From contig CAZFSS010000015.1 in assembly GCA_964521715.1 (NCBI GenBank), positions 10,060 to 74,059 of the forward strand: a DNA stretch of 64,000 bases, in the 5' to 3' direction. This document shows, one piece after another, positions 2,565 through 64,000 of this stretch (position 1 is its first letter; each line of letters begins with the position of its first letter). The position numbers and the translations under genes were made by a program. The notes below the pieces were generated by a model. That model searched no databases, was not told the DNA's origin, and was given only the letters and a program-made list of their open reading frames with translations. This DNA is from an uncultured candidatus Brocadiaceae bacterium. GTDB lineage: Bacteria > Planctomycetota > Brocadiia > SM23-32.

Positions 2565-3845
2565 GTGGCCTACGTCTTCCGTAGCAAGCGCAAGGATGGC
2601 GCGCCGTATGGGCCCTGGCGCTTCCAGTTCACCGACTGGACCGGGCGACGCCGGACAGCAACCGCCAGTGCCTCAAAGACGCGGACCGAGAAGCTCGCCC
2701 AGGAGGTCGACCTGGAGCACCGACTTATTCGTCAAGGGCTACGGCCTGCGCCGGATCCTCATGCAGAGCACAAGAGGCGTCCCTTCTCGGAGCTTGCAGC
2801 GGAGTACTGCGAGTGGGGCGAAAGTCAGGGCGGGCGTGGTGGCCGGCCCTGGAGTGCAACACATGCCCGGATGCGGCGGACCTATCTGGCATGGTGGCGT
2901 GATAGCTTGCACCTTACGAGCTTAGGCGACCTTGGAGGCTGTCTGCCGCGCGTCGAGAAGGTGTTGCGTGACTTGCAGGGCAAGGGCCTCTCCAACAAGA
3001 CCGTCAGGAACTACGCCGAGGCGCTGATGGCCTTCTGTGGCTGGGGCACCATGCGCGGGTATCTGACCGAGAATCCGCTGAGGGGCCTGCGGGGTTTCGA
3101 CACCACGCCGGGCCACAGGAGGCGGGCGCTCACGCCCGAGGAGATCGGGCGCCTGCTGGAAGTTGCCCCGCCGGATCGGCGCATACTGTATCAGGTCGCC
3201 CTTTGCTCGGGGCTGCGGGCGAATGAACTGAGGTCCCTCACGCCAGCGGACCTGGACACGCAGAAGGGCGGACTACTGCTTCGGCCCGAATGGACGAAGA
3301 ACCGAAAAGGCGGCTTCCAGCCGTTGCCTGTGTGGCTCTTGCGGGAGCTGGCCGACTACGCCACCAGGGACAGAGCGACGGCGGCCTACCGGGAAGCGTA
3401 CGAGCAGGCCCACGCGGTAACGGAGGCGCCGGCTGGGCGCTTGCTATTCGTCCCTTCCCATCCGGCGGGGAGCTTCGACGAAGACTGTGCGGCGGCGGGT
3501 ATCCCAAAGCGAAAGCTCGGGGGCAAAGTAGACTTTCACGCGCTGCGGACGACCTTCGTGACGCTGTTGGACGGGGCTGGCGGCAGCGTAAAGGAGACAC
3601 AGACCTTGGCGCGCCATGCTGATCCCGCCCTAACCTGGAACGTCTACGGGCGGGCCTCAGAGGAGCGCCTTGCGGAACTGGCGGCAGTCGTGGGGGAGGT
3701 TGCGCGGGGGCGCGTACGTTACCCTGAGAGCATACAGGGAGCAGTACGCCGGATGGCCGTAGGCGCGCAAGTCTATGAGGAGCAAGAGGATAGGATGGTC
3801 GGGGCGGCGGGATTTGAACCCGCGATCTCTAGCCCCCCATGCTAG
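2565..3845 (+). CDS. Tyrosine recombinase/integrase
   Basis: SGLRANEL (R), WTKNRK (K), DFHALR (HxxR), ARHADPALTWNVY (H, Y); SD AGGAGG; C-terminus overlaps the tRNA antisense. Confidence 0.95.
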   Translation: MAYVFRSKRKDGAPYGPWRFQFTDWTGRRRTATASASKTRTEKLAQEVDLEHRLIRQGLRPAPDPHAEHKRRPFSELAAEYCEWGESQGGRGGRPWSATHARMRRTYLAWWRDSLHLTSLGDLGGCLPRVEKVLRDLQGKGLSNKTVRNYAEALMAFCGWGTMRGYLTENPLRGLRGFDTTPGHRRRALTPEEIGRLLEVAPPDRRILYQVALCSGLRANELRSLTPADLDTQKGGLLLRPEWTKNRKGGFQPLPVWLLRELADYATRDRATAAYREAYEQAHAVTEAPAGRLLFVPSHPAGSFDEDCAAAGIPKRKLGGKVDFHALRTTFVTLLDGAGGSVKETQTLARHADPALTWNVYGRASEERLAELAAVVGEVARGRVRYPESIQGAVRRMAVGAQVYEEQEDRMVGAAGFEPAISSPPC

Positions 3846-3874
3846 CGCCCTAAGCCAGGCTGGGCCACGCCCCG
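3796..3874 (-). tRNA. tRNA-Pro(GGG)
   Basis: CGGGGCG/CGCCCCG acceptor, anticodon arm CTAGC-ATGGGGG-GCTAG, GGTTCAAATCC T-arm, encoded CCA. Confidence 0.95.
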
Positions 3875-17278: not shown

Positions 17279-20200
17279 TCACGGCTCCTCTTGCGCCGCG
17301 CCTTCTTCGGGCGCCGGCCGGCGTATGCCCCAGAGGCGCAGCATCTTGTCGTTGGAGCCGGTCGCCAGTAGCCGTCCGTCAGGGCTGAACGCCACGGCCG
17401 TGACCCAGTGGCCGTGCGCCGGCAGGCTGCGCAGCTGCGCCTTGGTCCGGAAGTCCCACAGCGTAACCGTCCTGTCCCGGCCACCGATCGCCAGCAGCCT
17501 GCCGTCGGGCGAGAATGCCAGCGCCAGGGCCGATTCCCCGACCGGCAGGGAGCCCTGGTCCCAGTCCGGCTCATTCGACAGCTTCCACAGTCGGACCTTC
17601 CGGCCGCCCATCCCGGTGTAGGACGTGACCAGCCCGCGGCTGTCCGGAGAGACCGCCAGCATGGCTGGCATGCGCGACCATTCGATCTTGCGCATCAGTT
17701 GGCCGTCCGAGGTGGACCACAAGCCCACGCAGCCCGGCTCGACTGCGGCCGCAAGCCACCGTCCGTCGGGCGAGAACGCAGCCGGCCGCTTGCCCTCGAT
17801 GGGCCCGAGACCCGCGGGCTGCCCCGCTATCGGATCCCACAGGCAGACGTGATACGCGTCGGCCGAGACGAGCAGCGTGCCGTCAGGGGAGAAGCCCAGC
17901 GAGCTGATCCGGCTGGCGTGGCCGCGCAGCTCGTGAAGGACGGTCCCGTCCTGGCGCAACCAGATGACCACGGAGCCGTCTTCGTGACCTGTGGCCAGCA
18001 GCCGGCCGTCCGGCGAGACGGCCACCGCCCTGACGTCGGACTGGCGGCTGAAGCTCGCCAGCACTGCCCCGTCGGCCGGGTCGTGCAGCGTGACGATGCC
18101 GTCCGTCGCGCCGACCGCCACGAAGCTGCCGTCCGGGGCGAACGCGACGGACTTGACGGGTCCGCCGTGCTCGCACCCCGGGCAGACCGGCGCCAGGTTC
18201 TCCAGCGTCTCCCTCCTGATGACGGAGTCGAGCTCCCGGTGCAGTTCGGGCAGTTTGCCCCGCCACGCTTCAGCGTCCTGCACCTGTCCGGCTTGTAGAA
18301 GCTGCTGCGCCGAACCCAGGATCTGTTCGGCCCGCTCCCAGCTAAGGGCGTCCATGGCGCGCGCGAAGGCGCGCTCATGCTGGCGCAGGTAATGCCCGTC
18401 CGGCGCCGCCGACAGCTCCGCCAGAAGCTCTCGGGCGTCGGGGGCGTAGGGGCTCTCGGGCAGGAGCTCGATGAACCGCCGTATCCTGTCCAGCGTCTCG
18501 GACCGCGTGTAAGCGGCGTCCACAGCGTCCTGCAGGTCCTGCCAGCAGTAGCGGTCGAAGTCCGGCTCGACCTGGGCGGCCTGCTCGCTCAGGTCGTCGT
18601 AGGGGAGGTCGGGCGCAAGGGCGGCCAGGCGCCGTGCCTCGTCCCCGGCCTCTGCGTAGCGCTGATCCCTCACGCCGGCCGCGAACGCCTCCTGTCCCGC
18701 CGTCACGGTGTCCTCGGCCGCCTGGCGAACGGCGTCGGGCAGGCCGGCCACGCCGGCTTCATCCGGCATGAACTGGCCGGCCATCTCCGCCAGCCAGCTC
18801 GCCTTCTGCCACTGCCCCTCAACGATGAGCTGCTGGACCTTTTCGGCGGCCCTTTTGGCGTCGCCCATTATCTTGTCGAGTTCCTGGCGCTCCGTCTCGA
18901 GCTGCTGGGCCACCTGGGTGTGCTGTTCGACGAGCCTGCCGGTTCTCTTCGTGAAGATCACGGTAAGGGCCGCAACGACGATGGCGGCCAGGACGATGGG
19001 GATCAGGACCCTTCGATTGCGCCACGCCCAGCGGTTCAGCCTGTAGCCGAGGGTGGCGGGACGAGCGCTGATGGGCCGCCCGGCCAGGAAGCTCTCCAGG
19101 TCGCGTGTCAGCGCCTCCGCGCTCTGGTAGCGCAGCACCTTGTCCTTCTGGATGGCCTTCAGGAGGATGATCTCCAGGTCGCGGGGCAGGTTGGGGTGCA
19201 GTGCGGACGGCCTCAAGGGCGCGGCCTCGCGCAAGAGCTCCAGCACTCCCAGCCCGTGCGCGTGCTCGATCGGGTAGGGCAGGACGCCGACCAGAAGCTC
19301 ATACAGGATCACGCCGAGCGCGTAGACGTCGGTGCGTTCGTCCACGTCTTTGGGCCGCCCGAGGGCCTGCTCGGGGCTCATGTAGCGGGGAGTGCCCATC
19401 AGTTCGCCCGTCACGGTCAGGCCCGCCGCACCCTCCTCACCCTCTACCGACGTGCGTGAAAGCCCGAAGTCGAGTATGCGCGGCCGGTTCAGGCCGTCCA
19501 CCATGATGTTGCCCGGCTTCAGGTCGCGGTGGATCACGCCGTGCTCGTGCGCGTAGTGGACTGCGTCGCACACGCGCACCATGAGCCGGCAGATCTCCTG
19601 TCGGCTCAGCTCGTTCCGTCGCACGTAGGTGAGCAGGTCGACCCCCTCGACGAACTCCATCGTGAAGTAGGGCTGGCTGCCCGCTTCGCCGTACTCATAG
19701 ACCGGCACGATGGCCGGATGCTTGAGCATGGCCACCGCCTGCGCTTCGCGCTCGAAGCGCTGGCGATGCCTGCTCGAGGCAAACGCGCCGCCCAGCATCA
19801 GCTTGAGGGCCACGTCGCGCGACGGGCGCCGCTGATGGGCCCTGTAGACCGCGCCCATCCCTCCGCGGCCCAAGAAGCCGACTATGTCGTAGCTGTCCTG
19901 GAATTGGGCCTGCATCCACTTCAGGTCGGCCATCTGGGCCTCGGTGGCCTGGGGTTGGGGGCCCTCGGGTGACGTCTTGGCCGTGTGGACGTCCACGGCC
20001 GGGGGCCCGGACCCCGGCCCGGCTTGCTCCAGGTCCATGGACGTGCCGCACTCGGGGCAGACGAATCTCTGCTGGTCGGCGGGAACCGTGAACTCCTTGC
20101 CGCACTGCCTGCAATTGACGCGGAGCTTCGCAGCGCGGACCGTGCGGGCCTCGGGGGCAAAGACGGGGGCCCGGCCCCCTTCGGCGAGGGTCTCGGCCTC

Positions 20201-20302
20201 GGCGTCTACGGCAAACGACTTCCCGCAGGATTCACATGACACCGTGGCCGAGCCGGCCGGGACCTGCAGCACCGAGCGACAATGGGGGCATACGACATAC
20301 AC
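17279..20302 (-). CDS. Ser/Thr protein kinase: Zn-ribbons, kinase, TM, WD40
   Basis: CPHC/CESC/CRQC/CPEC; GRGGMG, HRDLKP, DFG, GTPRYMSPEQ; TM segment; repeated AFSPDG WD40 units. Confidence 0.93.
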   Translation of the reverse strand: MYVVCPHCRSVLQVPAGSATVSCESCGKSFAVDAEAETLAEGGRAPVFAPEARTVRAAKLRVNCRQCGKEFTVPADQQRFVCPECGTSMDLEQAGPGSGPPAVDVHTAKTSPEGPQPQATEAQMADLKWMQAQFQDSYDIVGFLGRGGMGAVYRAHQRRPSRDVALKLMLGGAFASSRHRQRFEREAQAVAMLKHPAIVPVYEYGEAGSQPYFTMEFVEGVDLLTYVRRNELSRQEICRLMVRVCDAVHYAHEHGVIHRDLKPGNIMVDGLNRPRILDFGLSRTSVEGEEGAAGLTVTGELMGTPRYMSPEQALGRPKDVDERTDVYALGVILYELLVGVLPYPIEHAHGLGVLELLREAAPLRPSALHPNLPRDLEIILLKAIQKDKVLRYQSAEALTRDLESFLAGRPISARPATLGYRLNRWAWRNRRVLIPIVLAAIVVAALTVIFTKRTGRLVEQHTQVAQQLETERQELDKIMGDAKRAAEKVQQLIVEGQWQKASWLAEMAGQFMPDEAGVAGLPDAVRQAAEDTVTAGQEAFAAGVRDQRYAEAGDEARRLAALAPDLPYDDLSEQAAQVEPDFDRYCWQDLQDAVDAAYTRSETLDRIRRFIELLPESPYAPDARELLAELSAAPDGHYLRQHERAFARAMDALSWERAEQILGSAQQLLQAGQVQDAEAWRGKLPELHRELDSVIRRETLENLAPVCPGCEHGGPVKSVAFAPDGSFVAVGATDGIVTLHDPADGAVLASFSRQSDVRAVAVSPDGRLLATGHEDGSVVIWLRQDGTVLHELRGHASRISSLGFSPDGTLLVSADAYHVCLWDPIAGQPAGLGPIEGKRPAAFSPDGRWLAAAVEPGCVGLWSTSDGQLMRKIEWSRMPAMLAVSPDSRGLVTSYTGMGGRKVRLWKLSNEPDWDQGSLPVGESALALAFSPDGRLLAIGGRDRTVTLWDFRTKAQLRSLPAHGHWVTAVAFSPDGRLLATGSNDKMLRLWGIRRPAPEEGAAQEEP

Positions 20303-42838: not shown

Positions 42839-43939
42839 CTACTCCGTTCCGCCGTGTTCGCGCAGCAGGTCGGCGATCTCGTTGTGGCCCTTGTCCAGGG
42901 CGAGGCGCAGGGGAGTCTTGCCCTCCCAGTCGTGCGGGTTGACGTCCGCGCCGTGGGCCAGCAGGACCTCCACGACGTCCCGATGACCCTCCAGAACTGC
43001 GAGGTGCAGGGGCGTGTAGCCGTTCTTGCTCGTTGCGTTCACGTCGGCGCCGTTGGCCAGCAGGAACTCGGCGACGTTCGCGTGGCCCTCGTCGGCCGCA
43101 ATGTGCAGGGCCGTATAGCCATTGTCGCCGGCCGCATTAACACGGACACCCAGGTCGAGGTACCAGGACAGCCCCTCAGGGCTGCCCGAGCGCACTGATC
43201 GCCGGAACCACTGCTCGTATTCCTTCCTGTGTTGCTCTTCCCAATATGCCATCGTGCGCGCCTGGTCCCACGATGAGTAAAAGCCCGCGCCGGCGTACAG
43301 GAGCGCGACTGCGGCGGCGAGGACCAGGGGCACTCTCCCCCCGGGGGGCTTGTCCCACAGCTCGTCCACCCGCCGCTGGATCTCGCCGGCGTCGGCTTTC
43401 AGCGGACACATGAAGACCGGGCGCATGACGTACCCCCCCCTTACCAGGTAGAACCAACATAGCCCAATAGCGCTGTTGCACACGGCTAACAAACCGGCCA
43501 CTCCGATGCGGCGGGCCGCCGCCTCGCTGACGAAGAGCCGGGCTCCCGTGGTCAGCCATGCCTCCATGCCCCCGGGCAGGGCGAAGATGACGGAGACCGC
43601 GAGGACGATCAGCCAGACAAGCAGCCCCTCACGTGCCACGCGCGCATTCCGCGCCCCCGTCGTCTTACTCGCGAACAAGATGCTGGCTGCCAGCCACAGG
43701 GCAACGAACCCGAACCAGAAGACGCCCAGAATCGCCCACAAACGCCCCTCGGAGTTCCGTCCGGGTACGACGAACAACTCGAGGAGCAGGAATAGGTCCA
43801 GCAAGGCAAGGAGAAGCTTCCGGCTCACGCGTCCGTTGCGGGCTGCCGCCCTGTTCATGGCAAACAGAATGGTCGCCGGCGAGATGGCGATAAGCCCGAT
43901 GACGATTGCGCCCGCGGCAAGCCAGACGGCGCCGGCCAT
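42839..43939 (-). CDS. Multi-TM protein with C-terminal ankyrin repeats
   Basis: Hydrophobic segments then GYTALHIAA, GYTPLHLAV, GKTPLRLA. Confidence 0.85.
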   Translation of the reverse strand: MAGAVWLAAGAIVIGLIAISPATILFAMNRAAARNGRVSRKLLLALLDLFLLLELFVVPGRNSEGRLWAILGVFWFGFVALWLAASILFASKTTGARNARVAREGLLVWLIVLAVSVIFALPGGMEAWLTTGARLFVSEAAARRIGVAGLLAVCNSAIGLCWFYLVRGGYVMRPVFMCPLKADAGEIQRRVDELWDKPPGGRVPLVLAAAVALLYAGAGFYSSWDQARTMAYWEEQHRKEYEQWFRRSVRSGSPEGLSWYLDLGVRVNAAGDNGYTALHIAADEGHANVAEFLLANGADVNATSKNGYTPLHLAVLEGHRDVVEVLLAHGADVNPHDWEGKTPLRLALDKGHNEIADLLREHGGTE

Positions 43940-44239: not shown

Positions 44240-45472
44240 ATGGAACAGCGAAACCAACGCGCAAAGGAACACAAACGCGTGGCCACGTTGCGGGGGGAGC
44301 TCGCCGCATGGGCGGGCCTCCGGCCGGAGGACGTGCGCGTCGTGCGGAGCCCATACCGCGTCTGCCCTCTCGGGGCGCACGTGGACCATCAACTGGGCAT
44401 GGTGACGGGCATGGCCCTTGACCGCACGCTCCTTGTTGCGTTCGCGCCCCGTGACGACCGGCGCCTCGTGCTCAAGAGCCACCAGTTCCCGAGCGTGAAA
44501 GCCATCCCGCTGGACGCGCTGCCCCCGTTTGCCGTCGGCGACTGGGCCGACTACGCGCGGGGCGCGGCCTTCGCCCTCGAGAGGCGGTCGCGCCTCGGAC
44601 GCGGGATCACGGCCATCGTGGACGGGCACGACGATGTGGGCGGCCTGAGCTCCTCCGCGGCGGCCGGCGTCGCCTACCTCCTGGCCCTGGAGGCGGCCAA
44701 CGGATTGGACGCCTCGTCGGCCGAGAACATCGAACTGGACCGCGTCATCGAGAACGACTACATCGGCCTGAACAACGGGATCCTCGACCAGTCCACGATC
44801 CTGCTGAGCCGCGCGGGCCACCTGACCCACGTCGACTGCGAGAGCGGCGAGAGCCGGCTCGTCCCGTTCGGGGGGACCGAGGAGTTCTCGGTGGCCGTGC
44901 TCTTCAGCGGGCTGCGCGCAAGGCTTTCCGACACGGATTACAACAAGCGTGTGCGCGAGTGCGACGAGGCGGCGGCCGTGCTGCTGGAGGCGGCCGGCAT
45001 CCAGGTGCACCCGGACCCGAAGCTGCGGGACGTCCCGCCGGAGGCGTTCGAGGAGCACGCCCGCCTGCTGCCCGAGCAGTGGCGACGGAGGGCGGCGCAC
45101 TTCTTCGGCGAGCAGGACCGCGTGCGGCGGGGCGTCGAGCTGTGGAAGCAGGGCGACCTGGAGGCGTTCGGCGGGCTGGTCAACGAATCCGGCCGCAGCT
45201 CGATCGAGAACTACGAGTGCGGCAACGAGTACCTGCGGACGGCTTACGAGGTGCTGCGCGACTGCTCGGGCGTCTACGGGGCGCGCTTCAGCGGAGCCGG
45301 CTTCCGGGGCTGCTGCGTCGGGCTGGCCCGGCCGGAGTGCGAGGGAGGGATCGCGCAGACGGCGCTCTCGGCCTACCTGGAGGCGCATCCCGACATGGAA
45401 GGGGAGGCGAAGGTCTACTTCTGCCGTCCGGCCGACGGCGCCGGGCTGCTCGATCGGGACGCCGCCCGATGA
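44240..45472 (+). CDS. GHMP sugar kinase, galacturonokinase-like
   Basis: PYRVCPLGAHVDHQ, GLSSSAA, GARFSGAGFRGC. Confidence 0.88.
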   Translation: MEQRNQRAKEHKRVATLRGELAAWAGLRPEDVRVVRSPYRVCPLGAHVDHQLGMVTGMALDRTLLVAFAPRDDRRLVLKSHQFPSVKAIPLDALPPFAVGDWADYARGAAFALERRSRLGRGITAIVDGHDDVGGLSSSAAAGVAYLLALEAANGLDASSAENIELDRVIENDYIGLNNGILDQSTILLSRAGHLTHVDCESGESRLVPFGGTEEFSVAVLFSGLRARLSDTDYNKRVRECDEAAAVLLEAAGIQVHPDPKLRDVPPEAFEEHARLLPEQWRRRAAHFFGEQDRVRRGVELWKQGDLEAFGGLVNESGRSSIENYECGNEYLRTAYEVLRDCSGVYGARFSGAGFRGCCVGLARPECEGGIAQTALSAYLEAHPDMEGEAKVYFCRPADGAGLLDRDAAR

Positions 45473-46596
45473 GGACCATTCGAGAGATCACGGGGCGCGT
45501 CTTCCCGAAGCGGATGCCCTGGCACGTGCTGGCGTTGGCGCTCGCGCTGACGTGCATCGGGGCGGCCTTCATCCGCAGCGCGCACTCTGCCGCGTACGCC
45601 TACAGGCACCTCGTGTTCGCCGGGATAGGGTGCGCGGCGTTCGTGGGGCTGTCCTTCTTGGACTACCGGCACCTGCGCGGGATCGCTTTGCTGCTCTACG
45701 GGGCGGGGATGCTGGCGCTGGCGGGGCTGCCGCTGTTCGGCGTGGTGGTCAACAACGCGCGGCGGTGGTACGACCTGGGGCTGTTCCACGCTCAGCCGTC
45801 CGAGCCGATGAAGTACCTGCTGGTCATCGCCCTGGCGGACTACTTCCGGCTGCGGCCCCGGCGCGACCGGCTCAGGGACATGCTGGCGCCGCTGGCGCTG
45901 ACAGTCGTCCCCATGCTGCTGATCGCCATTGAGCCGGACTTCGGGACGGCGCTGATCTTCGCTCCCGTGGTGTTCGGAATGGCGTTCCTGGGCGGGGTGA
46001 AGGTGCGCAACCTGGCGATCCTTGCGGCGGGGGGCTGCCTGCTGCTCGCGGCGGTCTGGTTGACGCCTGGCGCCCTGAGGGACTACCAGAGGGAGCGGGT
46101 CATGAGCTTCGTCGATCCGGGCCGCAATCCGGACACGAGCGCCGCCTACAATGCGCGGCAGGCCACGATCGCCATCAGCGCCGGCGGTCTGAGGGGACAG
46201 GGCTGGGGGCAGGGCGTACTGAATCGCCTGGGCCGCGTGCCCGAGCGGCATACGGACTTCATATTCCCCGTGATTGCGGAGGAATGGGGATTCGTCCGCA
46301 CGGCCGGCGTCATCTTCCTGTACTTGCTGCTTGTGTTCCTGCTGGCGCGGCTGGCGCGGGCGACCCGTGAGCCGTTCGGGCGCCTGCTGATAGGGGGGGT
46401 CATGATCGTCTTCGCCGTGCAGAGCCTGCTGCACATGGCGATCTCGCTGCGGCTTGCCCCCATCACGGGCCTGACGCTGCCGCTGATCAGCTACGGGGGG
46501 TCCTCGCTGGTGAGCACGTACGCCGGCCTGGGGCTGGCCGCGAGCGTGCGCATGCACCGGAGCGTCGGGTTCGAGGGTGACGAGCCGGGCTGGTAG
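45469..46596 (+). CDS. rodA: SEDS protein (RodA/FtsW family)
   Basis: ARRW, QPSE, EPDFGT, HTDFIF, LISYGGSS. Confidence 0.9.
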   Translation: MRTIREITGRVFPKRMPWHVLALALALTCIGAAFIRSAHSAAYAYRHLVFAGIGCAAFVGLSFLDYRHLRGIALLLYGAGMLALAGLPLFGVVVNNARRWYDLGLFHAQPSEPMKYLLVIALADYFRLRPRRDRLRDMLAPLALTVVPMLLIAIEPDFGTALIFAPVVFGMAFLGGVKVRNLAILAAGGCLLLAAVWLTPGALRDYQRERVMSFVDPGRNPDTSAAYNARQATIAISAGGLRGQGWGQGVLNRLGRVPERHTDFIFPVIAEEWGFVRTAGVIFLYLLLVFLLARLARATREPFGRLLIGGVMIVFAVQSLLHMAISLRLAPITGLTLPLISYGGSSLVSTYAGLGLAASVRMHRSVGFEGDEPGW

Positions 46597-46691
46597 GGCG
46601 CCGGTTGAAAGGCTGCCCGGTGCGCCTTAGAATGCCTCCGAGCGCCGGGCAAGGCGCTCTCGACGGCAACACGTTCGATCCGGAGACTGCC

Positions 46692-48041
<1,350 letters not shown>

Positions 48042-62929: not shown

Positions 62930-64000
62930 TCACCGGAGCTTCCCCTGCAACGTGCCCAGGAGCTGGCGGACGGCCGCCGAGGCCGCGTCCTCGCGTGACC
63001 GCTTGATCGCTTCGGCCTCGCTGTCCGTGTAGGCGCCCTGGCCCTTCCCCTGCGCGGTCAGGACCGTCCGGCTCCCCTCCGGCATGTCGGGGTCGAGTAC
63101 CTTGAACCGGACCGGACAGGAGACGATGAACACCTTGCCCTCCGTGGTCTGGACGGCGTCCGTCAGCTCCGTCTGCGCCTCGCCGATCACGACCAGCAAG
63201 AACTGCCCGGGCGCCAGGCTCCGGCGCAACGGCGAGAAGGCGTCCAGCACGTCGGCCTCGGGGGAGTCCACGCCTAGTTCCCCCGCCTTCACGTACTTCA
63301 GCGCCTCTGCCTCGTCCACCAGCCGGAAGCCATTCTCCGTCATCGCCTGTTTCACGCGCTCCGTAACGACCGGGGGCGCCGGTGAACCGTCTGCTGCCGT
63401 CTCGCGCACGTAGAACGCGAACAAAGTGTTCGACCGCGAGCGCAGCACGTAGCTGAAGGCCGCCTGCGGCCGCTTCAAGTTGGCCGGCGCCGCGCCCGCT
63501 GACAGGTAGTCCAGGTCGAGCTCGGCCACGAGCACGTTGCCCCCCCCGGCGGAAGGGGCCGGCTCCTGAAGCCGCCATTCGGCGGCGCCGTCTTGGCCCG
63601 TGATGGCCCTGCCGATCTGCCGGCCCTCGGGCCCTCCGGCGAGCAGGCGCACGGGCAACCCCGCCACGGGCTTCCGGGCCTCGCCCGCGACGGCCCTCAC
63701 CTGCAGCGGATCCCTCAGCGGCACGCCCGGAGGCACCCATTGGCCGTCGCCGGCCGTCTTCTCTATGGTGAGGCCCGCCAGCAGTTCCTCCAGTTCCTGC
63801 CTGAGGTCCACCAGCACCGGGCCGGGCACGGCCTCGCGCAGCTCTGCTGCGCTCTGCGCCGGCGCCACGGTCACGGCCCGCAACTGCAGCTCGACGGCCT
63901 CCCGCGCCGCTGCCAATGCGTCGAGGTAGTCCTTCAGGGAAGCGGCGTAGTTCTCCGCCTTGCGATGGTTGCGCGCCGACGTGGTCAGGCCGTCGCTCTG
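62930..64000 (-). CDS. 5'-truncated hypothetical protein (start outside window)
   Basis: Frame stays open from 63916 to the window edge; >350 aa. Confidence 0.75.
   Translation of the reverse strand, partial: QSDGLTTSARNHRKAENYAASLKDYLDALAAAREAVELQLRAVTVAPAQSAAELREAVPGPVLVDLRQELEELLAGLTIEKTAGDGQWVPPGVPLRDPLQVRAVAGEARKPVAGLPVRLLAGGPEGRQIGRAITGQDGAAEWRLQEPAPSAGGGNVLVAELDLDYLSAGAAPANLKRPQAAFSYVLRSRSNTLFAFYVRETAADGSPAPPVVTERVKQAMTENGFRLVDEAEALKYVKAGELGVDSPEADVLDAFSPLRRSLAPGQFLLVVIGEAQTELTDAVQTTEGKVFIVSCPVRFKVLDPDMPEGSRTVLTAQGKGQGAYTDSEAEAIKRSREDAASAAVRQLLGTLQGKLR

What the first reader, a model, noticed from the sequence alone, without database searches (positions are those of the whole stretch)
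44240..46596. Bacterial kinase with plant galacturonokinase signatures, coupled to rodA
Seen: PYRVCPLGAHVDHQ replaces the GalK PGRVNLIGEHTDY motif. GVAYLLALE, ENIELDRVIEN, NGILDQS and SSIENYECG match my recollection of plant GalAK (EC 2.7.1.44). Its stop overlaps the rodA start (ATGA). Knowledge: GalAK feeds UDP-GalA salvage in plants, while bacteria usually catabolise GalA by isomerase or oxidative routes. Inference: a bacterial uronate-1-kinase salvage route for envelope glycans, and a possible clue to the origin of plant GalAK.
Basis: partly seen in the sequence, partly recalled or inferred. Interest (0 to 1): 0.65.

Follow-up and report, generated by a model that had tools for sequence, protein, structure and literature searches.

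The report
Bacterial galacturonokinase-like kinase upstream of rodA
A sediment planctomycete carries a sugar kinase that is a clear relative of the plant galacturonic-acid kinase rather than of ordinary galactokinase. It belongs to a large, uncharacterised bacterial family that almost always sits next to a sugar-nucleotide-forming enzyme, so it probably recycles free uronic acid into building blocks for surface polysaccharides.

Summary
Window 44240-45472 (+) encodes a 410-aa GHMP kinase carrying every quoted motif, and its TGA stop overlaps the rodA ATG (ATGA at 45469-45472).

It is 42% identical over its full length to Arabidopsis GalAK (E 8e-98) and only 29-30% identical to solved GalK structures. 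It falls below the NCBIfam GalK cut-off. In an NJ tree it groups with plant GalAK against canonical GalK at 100% bootstrap. All 11 positions that separate the two groups carry the GalAK residue.

The family is large and bacterial. Named members here are Planctomycetota, Anaerolineae, Thermodesulfobacteriota, Dorea and a Lactococcus plasmid.

Outside the window's own lineage, 63 of 74 loci have a sugar-1-phosphate nucleotidyltransferase directly downstream. Twenty-four loci also carry an SDR epimerase and 18 a UDP-glucose dehydrogenase. One cassette lies inside a Lactococcus EPS cluster. This supports a kinase-plus-nucleotidyltransferase route to an NDP-uronic acid.

RodA is the downstream neighbour only in the window's planctomycete lineage (9 of 9 loci). 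No nucleotidyltransferase lies in the 64-kb window.

The functional meaning of the rodA link and the origin of plant GalAK remain unproven. No enzyme assay exists for any bacterial member. I rate it a new member of a known kind, of moderate interest.

The parts
44240..45472 (+). GHMP-family anomeric sugar kinase, GalAK-type (410 aa; alternative GTG start at 44279 gives 397 aa)
   Evidence: Pfam GalKase_gal_bdg + GHMP_kinases_N + GHMP_kinases_C. 42% identity, E 8e-98 to the Arabidopsis GalAK cluster. Below the GalK equivalog cut-off. AF2 model pLDDT 95.1 with a GalK fold, TM 0.8-0.9. ATG start supported by aligned ATGs in relatives.
44351..44392 (+). Sugar-binding signature PYRVCPLGAHVDHQ (residues 38-51), replacing the GalK signature PGRVNLIGEHTDYN
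   Evidence: Motif census and per-position counts. Ala46 replaces GalK Glu in 99/99 bacterial and 12/12 plant-clade GalAK-type sequences. His50 and Gln51 replace Tyr and Asn.
45469..45472 (+). ATGA overlap of the kinase stop codon and the rodA start codon
   Evidence: Raw sequence. The same overlap is present in L005 and L009. Relatives at about 60-72% kinase identity have spacers of a few to about 40 bases.
45469..46596 (+). rodA-like SEDS peptidoglycan glycosyltransferase (375 aa)
   Evidence: Pfam FTSW_RODA_SPOVE E 2e-87. TIGR02210 rodA_shape 317.3 bits (cut-off 336.7). ftsW 259 bits.
46605..46633 (+). Sigma-70-like promoter match between rodA and the next gene (weak evidence that kinase-rodA is a two-gene unit)
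   Evidence: 10 of 12 consensus matches. This is a consensus match only.
46689..48041 (+). Dihydrolipoamide acyltransferase (E2), a conserved downstream neighbour and probably not part of the system
   Evidence: Pfam Biotin_lipoyl + E3_binding + 2-oxoacid_dh. The kinase-rodA-E2 order is conserved in L006, L007, L009 and L010.

Best explanation
The gene encodes a bacterial orthologue-like relative of plant galacturonokinase (GalAK, EC 2.7.1.44). It is a GHMP kinase that uses ATP to phosphorylate the anomeric C1 hydroxyl of a free hexuronic acid, most likely D-galacturonic acid and possibly also D-glucuronic acid.

The sugar-1-phosphate would then be converted by a nucleotidyltransferase into an NDP-uronic acid, presumably UDP-GalA, for glycosyltransferases that build surface or exopolysaccharides. 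This would be a salvage route running alongside the de novo route (UDP-glucose dehydrogenase plus UDP-GlcA 4-epimerase).

In most bacteria the kinase and its nucleotidyltransferase form a two-gene cassette. In the window's planctomycete lineage the nucleotidyltransferase is not linked, and the kinase lies directly upstream of rodA and is probably co-transcribed with it.

Shown here: homology, fold, signature residues and gene neighbourhoods. Inferred: the substrate, the nucleotide used, the glycan made, and any functional tie to RodA.
For: Identity
- 42% identity, E 8e-98, full length, to the Arabidopsis GalAK cluster containing GALAK_ARATH.
- Only about 124 bits and 29-30% identity to solved GalKs.
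- TIGR00131 GalK score is 181.7, below the 226.65 cut-off. Arabidopsis GalAK itself scores 182.1.
- In an NJ tree of 141 sequences, the 126 GalAK-type sequences (bacteria plus plants) separate from 15 canonical GalK-motif sequences at 100% bootstrap.

Residues
- Of 11 positions conserved in the bacterial group and different in GalK, plants agree at 11/11 and the window at 11/11.
- Ala46 sits where GalK has Glu43.
- Arg356 sits in SGAGFRGC where GalK has Gly. This position is Arg in 58 and Lys in 3 of the 99 bacterial sequences in the tree set, and Arg in all 12 plant-clade sequences.
- Catalytic Arg40, Asp183 and the GGLSSSAA ATP motif are intact, and the window protein keeps all of the many columns that are invariant across 53 family members.

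Context
- In 63 of 74 loci outside the window lineage, a PF00483 nucleotidyltransferase follows on the same strand, within 150 bp in 50 of them.
- 24 loci also carry an SDR epimerase and 18 a UDP-glucose 6-dehydrogenase. The SDR has E 3.6e-106 to PDB 5u4q and is 51% identical to the Klebsiella epimerase gene two genes from ugd.
- The gut loci are from Dorea.
- On Lactococcus garvieae plasmid CP066001.1 the cassette lies inside a Wzy-type EPS cluster.
Against: - No biochemical data exist for any bacterial member, and none were found in the searchable literature.
- No nucleotidyltransferase homologue lies in the 64-kb window, so the second step is unaccounted for in this organism.
- The window carries no pectin or uronate genes. 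It is a housekeeping region.
- The partner nucleotidyltransferases reach no NCBIfam equivalog cut-off, so their nucleotide and sugar specificity is unknown.
- About 30% of the more distant family representatives carry Phe234/Pro184/Gly353/Gly356, so specificity is probably not uniform across the family.
- The link from Ala46 and Arg356 to carboxylate recognition rests on my recollection of GalK structures and of the AtGalAK mutagenesis paper.
Confidence: 0.7

Rival explanations
1. It is an ordinary galactokinase (GalK) of the Leloir pathway with a divergent signature.
For: Pfam finds the galactokinase galactose-binding signature, and NCBIfam's best models are GalK equivalogs. JGI and NCBI label relatives 'galactokinase' or 'galactokinase family protein'. 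The fold matches GalK.
Against: - All five GalK equivalog models score below their cut-offs.
- The GalAK-type versus GalK-type split has 100% bootstrap.
- The Glu that GalK places at human position 43 is Ala here, and the Tyr-Asn pair is His-Gln.
- No galT, galE or galM lies in the window.
- Relatives pair with a nucleotidyltransferase, not with galT.
Confidence: 0.03
2. It is a GalAK-family anomeric kinase whose real substrate is another sugar, for example D-glucuronic acid or another acidic or modified hexose. The NDP-sugar made would then not be UDP-GalA.
For: - The linked UDP-glucose dehydrogenase produces UDP-GlcA, so a GlcA salvage kinase would fit the cassette equally well.
- From memory, a single Tyr-to-Phe change lets AtGalAK accept GlcA. 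The family varies at that position, with Tyr in 71 and Phe in 27 sequences.
- A fused GlcA kinase-nucleotidyltransferase exists in zebrafish (PMC3938481).
- The partner nucleotidyltransferases are an unassigned subfamily.
Against: The window protein has the plant GalAK state at every discriminating position examined: Gln184, Tyr234, Ala353 and Arg356. The co-occurring SDR epimerase makes UDP-GalA the likely end product.
Confidence: 0.2
3. In this lineage the kinase serves peptidoglycan metabolism. It would be an anomeric kinase for a cell-wall sugar (MurNAc or GlcNAc, analogous to AmgK/MurU recycling), which would explain the overlap with rodA.
For: The stop/start overlap with rodA. Kinase-rodA adjacency is conserved in 9 of 9 loci of the lineage, down to about 58% RodA identity.
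Against: - The sugar-pocket residues are identical to plant GalAK, and plants have no MurNAc.
- AmgK belongs to a different kinase superfamily (my knowledge).
- The partner nucleotidyltransferases of relatives score 33-53 bits against MurU models with cut-offs of 250-370.
- Outside this lineage the family is never next to rodA in 84 loci.
- ATGA overlaps are the commonest operon junction and do not by themselves imply a shared function.
Confidence: 0.05

Closest known systems
Arabidopsis thaliana galacturonokinase GalAK (At3g10700, GALAK_ARATH, EC 2.7.1.44; Yang et al. 2009 J Biol Chem 284:21526, cited from memory and from the reference list seen)
   Same: Same GHMP/GalK-like architecture. 42% identity over the full length. 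Shared signature YR[IV]CPLGAH[IV]DHQ, GVAYLLALE, NGILDQS, SSIENYECG and SGAGFRGC. All 11 GalAK-versus-GalK discriminating positions are shared.
   Different: The window gene is bacterial. It sits upstream of rodA rather than being a stand-alone nuclear gene. In plants the follow-up enzyme is the broad-specificity UDP-sugar pyrophosphorylase (PF01704 type). In bacterial relatives it is a small PF00483 nucleotidyltransferase encoded next door. Activity has not been tested.
Canonical galactokinase GalK (EC 2.7.1.6; PDB 1WUU, 1PIE, 1S4E)
   Same: Same fold (TM 0.8-0.9). Same catalytic Arg/Asp pair and the same ATP-binding motif.
   Different: 29-30% identity. Signature differs (Ala for Glu, His-Gln for Tyr-Asn, Cys-Pro for Asn-Leu). 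Arg in motif III where GalK has Gly. Below all GalK equivalog cut-offs. Separate clade at 100% bootstrap.
Two-gene sugar-1-kinase plus nucleotidyltransferase salvage modules: AmgK-MurU in Pseudomonas, HddA-HddC, and the fused glucuronokinase-pyrophosphorylase of zebrafish (PMC3938481)
   Same: The logic matches. An anomeric kinase makes a sugar-1-phosphate and the adjacent or fused nucleotidyltransferase activates it. The bacterial GalAK family shows this adjacency in 85% of loci outside the window lineage.
   Different: The kinase clade is different, and for AmgK the superfamily is different. The nucleotidyltransferase partner matches none of the MurU, HddC, RmlA or GalU equivalogs. In the window itself the nucleotidyltransferase partner is missing from the neighbourhood.

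Membership tests
Galacturonokinase (GalAK, EC 2.7.1.44) | GHMP kinase architecture and fold with intact ATP motif and catalytic Arg/Asp | tested here: met
   Pfam GalKase_gal_bdg, GHMP_kinases_N and GHMP_kinases_C. AF2 pLDDT 95.1 with a GalK fold. Arg40, Asp183 and GGLSSSAA are among the invariant columns.
Galacturonokinase (GalAK, EC 2.7.1.44) | Closer to the characterised Arabidopsis enzyme than to any other characterised GHMP kinase, and in the same clade | tested here: met
   286 bits, 42% identity to the GalAK cluster, versus about 124 bits to GalK and 35-63 bits to yeast Gal1/Gal3, GalNAc kinase and AbGHMP. GalAK-type clade has 100% bootstrap.
Galacturonokinase (GalAK, EC 2.7.1.44) | Signature P-Y-R-[IV]-C-P-L-G-A-H-[IV]-D-H-Q, with Ala at the GalK Glu43 position | tested here: met
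   Window has PYRVCPLGAHVDHQ. Ala is present in 99/99 bacterial and 12/12 plant-clade members, against Glu in 11/15 GalK sequences.
Galacturonokinase (GalAK, EC 2.7.1.44) | Residues reported to govern sugar choice in AtGalAK (Ala41, Tyr250, Ala368; recalled from Yang et al. 2009, paper not readable here) | tested here: met
   The alignment places window Ala46, Tyr234 and Ala353 at those positions. The functional meaning of these residues rests on memory.
Galacturonokinase (GalAK, EC 2.7.1.44) | ATP-dependent phosphorylation of D-galacturonic acid at C1 | not testable with these tools
   Needs an enzyme assay. No bacterial member has been assayed in the literature searched.
Galacturonokinase (GalAK, EC 2.7.1.44) | A downstream enzyme converting GalA-1-P to UDP-GalA in the same organism | tested here: inconclusive
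   No nucleotidyltransferase homologue lies in the 64-kb window (tblastn with four partner sequences). The rest of the genome was not available. Relatives have one next door.
Canonical galactokinase GalK (TIGR00131) | Score at or above the curated equivalog cut-off | tested here: not met
   181.7 bits against a cut-off of 226.65. The four other GalK equivalogs are also far below their cut-offs.
Canonical galactokinase GalK (TIGR00131) | Signature G-R-V-N-L-I-G-E-H-T-D-Y | tested here: not met
   Replaced by YRVCPLGAHVDH.
Canonical galactokinase GalK (TIGR00131) | Leloir gene context (galT, galE, galM) | tested here: not met
   None found in the parts of the window that were scanned or in the syntenic locus L010.
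RodA (SEDS peptidoglycan glycosyltransferase) for the downstream gene | FTSW_RODA_SPOVE domain, with RodA as the best equivalog | tested here: inconclusive
   Pfam E 2e-87. TIGR02210 scores 317.3 bits, just under its 336.7 cut-off but well above ftsW at 259.4. It is a SEDS protein and RodA-like.
AmgK/MurU-type peptidoglycan sugar recycling | MurU-type uridylyltransferase partner and an AmgK-type kinase | tested here: not met
   Partner nucleotidyltransferases of relatives score 33-53 bits against MurU models with cut-offs of 250-370. The kinase is GHMP, not AmgK-like.

The most novel reading that the evidence does not exclude
In this planctomycete lineage the uronate kinase has been wired into the cell-elongation machinery. 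Translational coupling to RodA would tie salvage of galacturonic acid (as GalA-1-P or UDP-GalA) to peptidoglycan polymerisation, for example to decorate peptidoglycan or a wall-attached polymer with uronic acid. Separately, the streptophyte GalAK that feeds pectin synthesis may have been acquired from bacteria of this family.
Probability: 0.1. Interest if true: 0.75.

Novelty: new member of a known kind. Interest (0 to 1): 0.5.

Why it matters
Galacturonokinase has been characterised only in plants, where it recycles pectin-derived GalA. This analysis shows that the plant enzyme has a large bacterial family behind it, present in sediment planctomycetes and in very common human-gut Dorea.

That family has its own dedicated, still uncharacterised nucleotidyltransferase partner, and in several lineages it is linked to UDP-GlcA and UDP-GalA synthesis genes and to an EPS cluster. 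If the predicted activity holds, bacteria have a direct GalA to GalA-1-P to NDP-GalA route in addition to the catabolic isomerase and oxidative pathways. This is relevant to how gut and soil bacteria use pectin breakdown products for their own capsules.

There is also a practical side. Enzymologists have reported lacking a stable GalA kinase for making GalA-1-P and UDP-GalA (PMC7984243). Bacterial homologues with their partner nucleotidyltransferases are obvious candidates.

The data also give a starting point for asking whether streptophytes obtained GalAK from bacteria.

Tried and rejected
An alignment query would have reached further. The metagenome scan with alignment A1 made up for this but carries no taxonomy.
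- The original GalAK paper (Yang et al. 2009) and the Gla_KP paper could not be opened. Statements about the AtGalAK mutants and about Gla_KP rest on memory.
- PDB 5u4q could not be identified from the literature. That it is the Klebsiella UDP-GlcA/GalA 4-epimerase is inferred from its length, from a score matching the Klebsiella homologue (357 versus 359 bits), and from that gene's position two genes from ugd.
- AF2 model coordinates are not readable in the sandbox, so I could not measure whether Arg356 and Ala46 line the C6 pocket.
- No RNA runs hold this sequence. Only three sediment-metagenome DNA runs do, so kinase-rodA co-transcription could not be checked.
- The NJ tree does not resolve the position of the plant clade (bootstrap below 15% on the backbone). 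I make no claim about the direction of transfer.
- Rejected: canonical GalK, and a pseudogene or degenerate copy (all family-invariant residues are retained).
- Considered and given low weight: a MurNAc/GlcNAc kinase role.
Full report
**Observation**

The + strand ORF ending at 45472 translates to a protein containing SPYRVCPLGAHVDHQ, GVAYLLALE, ENIELDRVIEN, NGILDQS and SSIENYECG.

The most likely start is the ATG at 44240 (410 aa), because seven relatives have an ATG at the aligned position. Automatic gene callers chose the GTG at 44279 (397 aa).

The sequence ...GCCCGATGAGG... at 45463-45475 shows that the kinase TGA stop overlaps the ATG of the next gene as ATGA. That gene (45469-46596) is a SEDS protein: Pfam FTSW_RODA_SPOVE E 2e-87, with rodA_shape as the best NCBIfam model at 317 bits, just under its cut-off.

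**What the kinase is**

- Pfam finds the galactokinase sugar-binding signature plus both GHMP kinase domains.
- All five NCBIfam GalK equivalogs are missed. TIGR00131 scores 181.7 against a cut-off of 226.65.
- I queried the protein database with my recollection of Arabidopsis GalAK. It returned the real cluster at 97% identity, and that cluster contains GALAK_ARATH / NP_187681.2.
- The window protein aligns with it end to end at 42% identity, E 8e-98.
- Against solved structures, the best sequence hits are galactokinases at about 124 bits.
- The AlphaFold model (pLDDT 95.1) superposes on GalK at TM 0.8-0.9 with 29-30% identity. No GalAK structure exists in the PDB.
- Arabidopsis GalAK scores 182.1 on TIGR00131, essentially the same as the window protein. 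Both are equally far from GalK.

**Phylogeny and residues**

An exhaustive search of 1.84 billion cluster representatives found 681 clusters at E ≤ 1e-30. The top 150 contain two motif classes: P[YL]R[IV]CPLGAH[IV]DHQ and the canonical PGRVNLIGEHTDYN.

In an NJ tree of 141 full-length sequences, the 126 GalAK-type sequences (bacteria plus plants) separate from the 15 GalK-type sequences with 100% bootstrap. The window sits in a 20-member clade with 99% support. Plants are monophyletic at 100%.

Eleven alignment positions are conserved in the bacterial group and differ from a conserved GalK residue. Plants share the bacterial residue at all 11, and so does the window.

At the position of human GalK Glu43, every GalAK-type sequence has Ala. 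Tyr47-Asn48 becomes His-Gln. In motif III the window and all plants have SGAGFRGC where GalK has Gly in place of the Arg.

From my knowledge of GalK structures, Glu43 and His44 contact the sugar C6 hydroxyl. Losing the acidic residue and gaining a basic one is what a C6-carboxylate substrate would need.

The window has the plant state at all four positions that vary within the family: Gln184, Tyr234, Ala353 and Arg356.

**Genomic context in relatives**

This is the most informative new result. I used called-gene tables for six homologues and then 80 metagenomic loci found with a family alignment. I mapped neighbours by tblastn and by all-against-all clustering of ORFs.

- Outside the window's own lineage, 63 of 74 loci with enough downstream sequence have a PF00483 sugar-1-phosphate nucleotidyltransferase on the same strand after the kinase. 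Fifty of these lie within 150 bp, often with a 4-base overlap.
- These nucleotidyltransferases reach no NCBIfam equivalog cut-off, and their best PDB match is only 47 bits. They form an unassigned subfamily.
- Twenty-four loci also carry an SDR epimerase. It has E 3.6e-106 to PDB 5u4q, is 51% identical to the Klebsiella epimerase gene two genes from ugd, and also hits the Bacillus cereus UDP-GlcA 4-epimerase and MoeE5.
- Eighteen loci carry a UDP-glucose 6-dehydrogenase: TIGR03026 at 310 bits, above its cut-off.
- The gut-metagenome versions belong to Dorea. Their kinase clusters hold 6639 and 2063 member sequences, so the cassette is very common in the human gut.
- On Lactococcus garvieae plasmid CP066001.1, the order epimerase, kinase (frameshifted), an unannotated gap of about 0.8 kb that I did not examine, then dehydrogenase lies inside a typical Wzy-type EPS cluster with a priming transferase, a tyrosine kinase and several glycosyltransferases.

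Taken together, the family is built into nucleotide-uronic-acid supply for polysaccharide synthesis.

**The window's own context**

All nine independent loci of the window's lineage have rodA directly downstream (kinase identity 60-88%; NCBI labels them Candidatus Brocadiaceae or Brocadiia, phylum Planctomycetota). In most of them the E2 acyltransferase follows rodA.

The ATGA overlap occurs only in the closest relatives. The others have spacers of a few to about 40 bases.

No nucleotidyltransferase homologue exists anywhere in the 64-kb window. The window is otherwise a housekeeping region. It holds the ribosomal protein operon, rpoA and thioredoxin. It also holds hisG, rbfA, infB, nusA, purL and pheST, together with fab genes, trpAB and one GT4 glycosyltransferase.

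A promoter-like match lies between rodA and the E2 gene. No RNA data exist. The sequence is found only in sediment metagenomes.

The rodA link is therefore a conserved, lineage-specific gene order with probable co-transcription. Nothing here shows that it is functional. ATGA overlaps are the commonest junction in bacterial operons.

**Mechanism proposed**

1. Free GalA, possibly also GlcA, is phosphorylated with ATP to the sugar-1-phosphate by the kinase. This step is inferred from homology and residues.
2. The sugar-1-phosphate reacts with an NTP to give an NDP-uronic acid. In relatives the adjacent nucleotidyltransferase would do this. In this organism an unlinked enzyme would be needed, and none has been seen.
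3. Glycosyltransferases use the NDP-uronic acid to build envelope or exopolysaccharide. This step is inferred from the EPS-cluster and Ugd/epimerase linkage in relatives.

I put 0.7 on this overall and about 0.6 on GalA specifically.

**Rivals**

- Canonical GalK (0.03). It is contradicted by the cut-offs, the tree, the residues and the context.
- A different substrate within the same family, notably GlcA (0.2). It is not excluded, because the linked dehydrogenase makes UDP-GlcA and because the family varies at Tyr234/Phe. However, the window has the plant state everywhere.
- A peptidoglycan-sugar kinase tied to RodA (0.05). It is disfavoured by the plant-identical pocket and by the absence of rodA linkage in 84 other loci.

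**Comparison with what is known, and novelty**

The enzyme kind is known from plants. AtGalAK has a Km of about 71 µM for GalA, as tabulated in PMC3938481.

I found no paper describing a bacterial GalAK. IMG already labels some homologues 'galactokinase/galacturonokinase' or 'galacturonokinase', and NCBI labels them 'galactokinase family protein'.

The kinase-plus-nucleotidyltransferase logic has precedents in AmgK-MurU, HddA-HddC and the fused zebrafish glucuronokinase-pyrophosphorylase.

The window gene is therefore a new member of a known kind. The bacterial cassette as a whole is an uncharacterised variant that deserves an assay.

**Origin of plant GalAK**

The nearest sequences to land-plant GalAK are from zygnematophyte algae: Closterium, Mesotaenium and Spirogloea. 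In the NJ tree Closterium and Mesotaenium join the land-plant clade at 64% bootstrap. Spirogloea was left out of the tree by the length filter and is placed only by BLAST (47% identity to AtGalAK).

The remaining members for which a source gives a taxon name are bacterial. The many unnamed metagenomic representatives could not be assigned. Bacterial sequences reach 44-49% identity to AtGalAK.

The position of the streptophyte clade among the bacterial sequences is unresolved. A bacterial origin is plausible but not shown.

Noticed in passing
window 2565-3874: A tyrosine recombinase (Pfam Phage_integrase, E 3.7e-10; 2565-3845, +) overlaps the 3' side of a tRNA-Pro(GGG) gene (3796-3874, -). This is the usual mark of an integrated mobile element. 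The first ~3.8 kb of the window have few ORFs with the genome's codon signature.
   Followed up: partly
window 17279-20302 (-): A 1007-aa protein combining a eukaryote-like Ser/Thr protein kinase domain with a C-terminal WD40 beta-propeller.
   Followed up: no
window 42839-43939 (-): A 366-aa protein with C-terminal ankyrin repeats and an apparently hydrophobic N-terminal half (by eye, not tested), transcribed divergently from the kinase. It is conserved next to the kinase in the identical contigs L002 and L003 but not in L010, so it is probably not part of the system.
   Followed up: partly
family representatives P0257-P0406: About 30% of the more distant GalAK-type representatives carry Phe234, Pro184, Gly353 and Gly356 instead of Tyr, Gln, Ala and Arg. 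They may form a subfamily with a different sugar specificity, perhaps GlcA. None of the 93 loci examined belongs to it.
   Followed up: partly
L014, L016, L017, L021, L028, L031, L032, L053: Two different nucleotidyltransferase partner types exist. One is a short ~245-265-aa form. The other is a ~317-aa form with a C-terminal left-handed beta-helix (LbH/GMPPB_C). In L014, L016 and L017 the long form is followed by a response regulator and a GAF-STAS protein, and an XdhC gene and an MFS transporter lie upstream and divergent.
   Followed up: no
L098 (Lactococcus garvieae plasmid CP066001.1) 10101-11277: The GalAK-type kinase in this EPS cluster is annotated as two 'hypothetical protein' CDS and matches in two pieces, so it looks frameshifted. 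The adjacent SDR epimerase is annotated 'GDP-mannose 4,6-dehydratase', which is probably a mis-annotation.
   Followed up: partly
window 62930-64000 (-) and L011 8918-9982 (+): Two sizeable ORFs with a good coding signature have no Pfam or NCBIfam match. One is a 356-aa protein cut by the window end. The other is a 354-aa protein immediately upstream of the kinase in L011 and L012.
   Followed up: no
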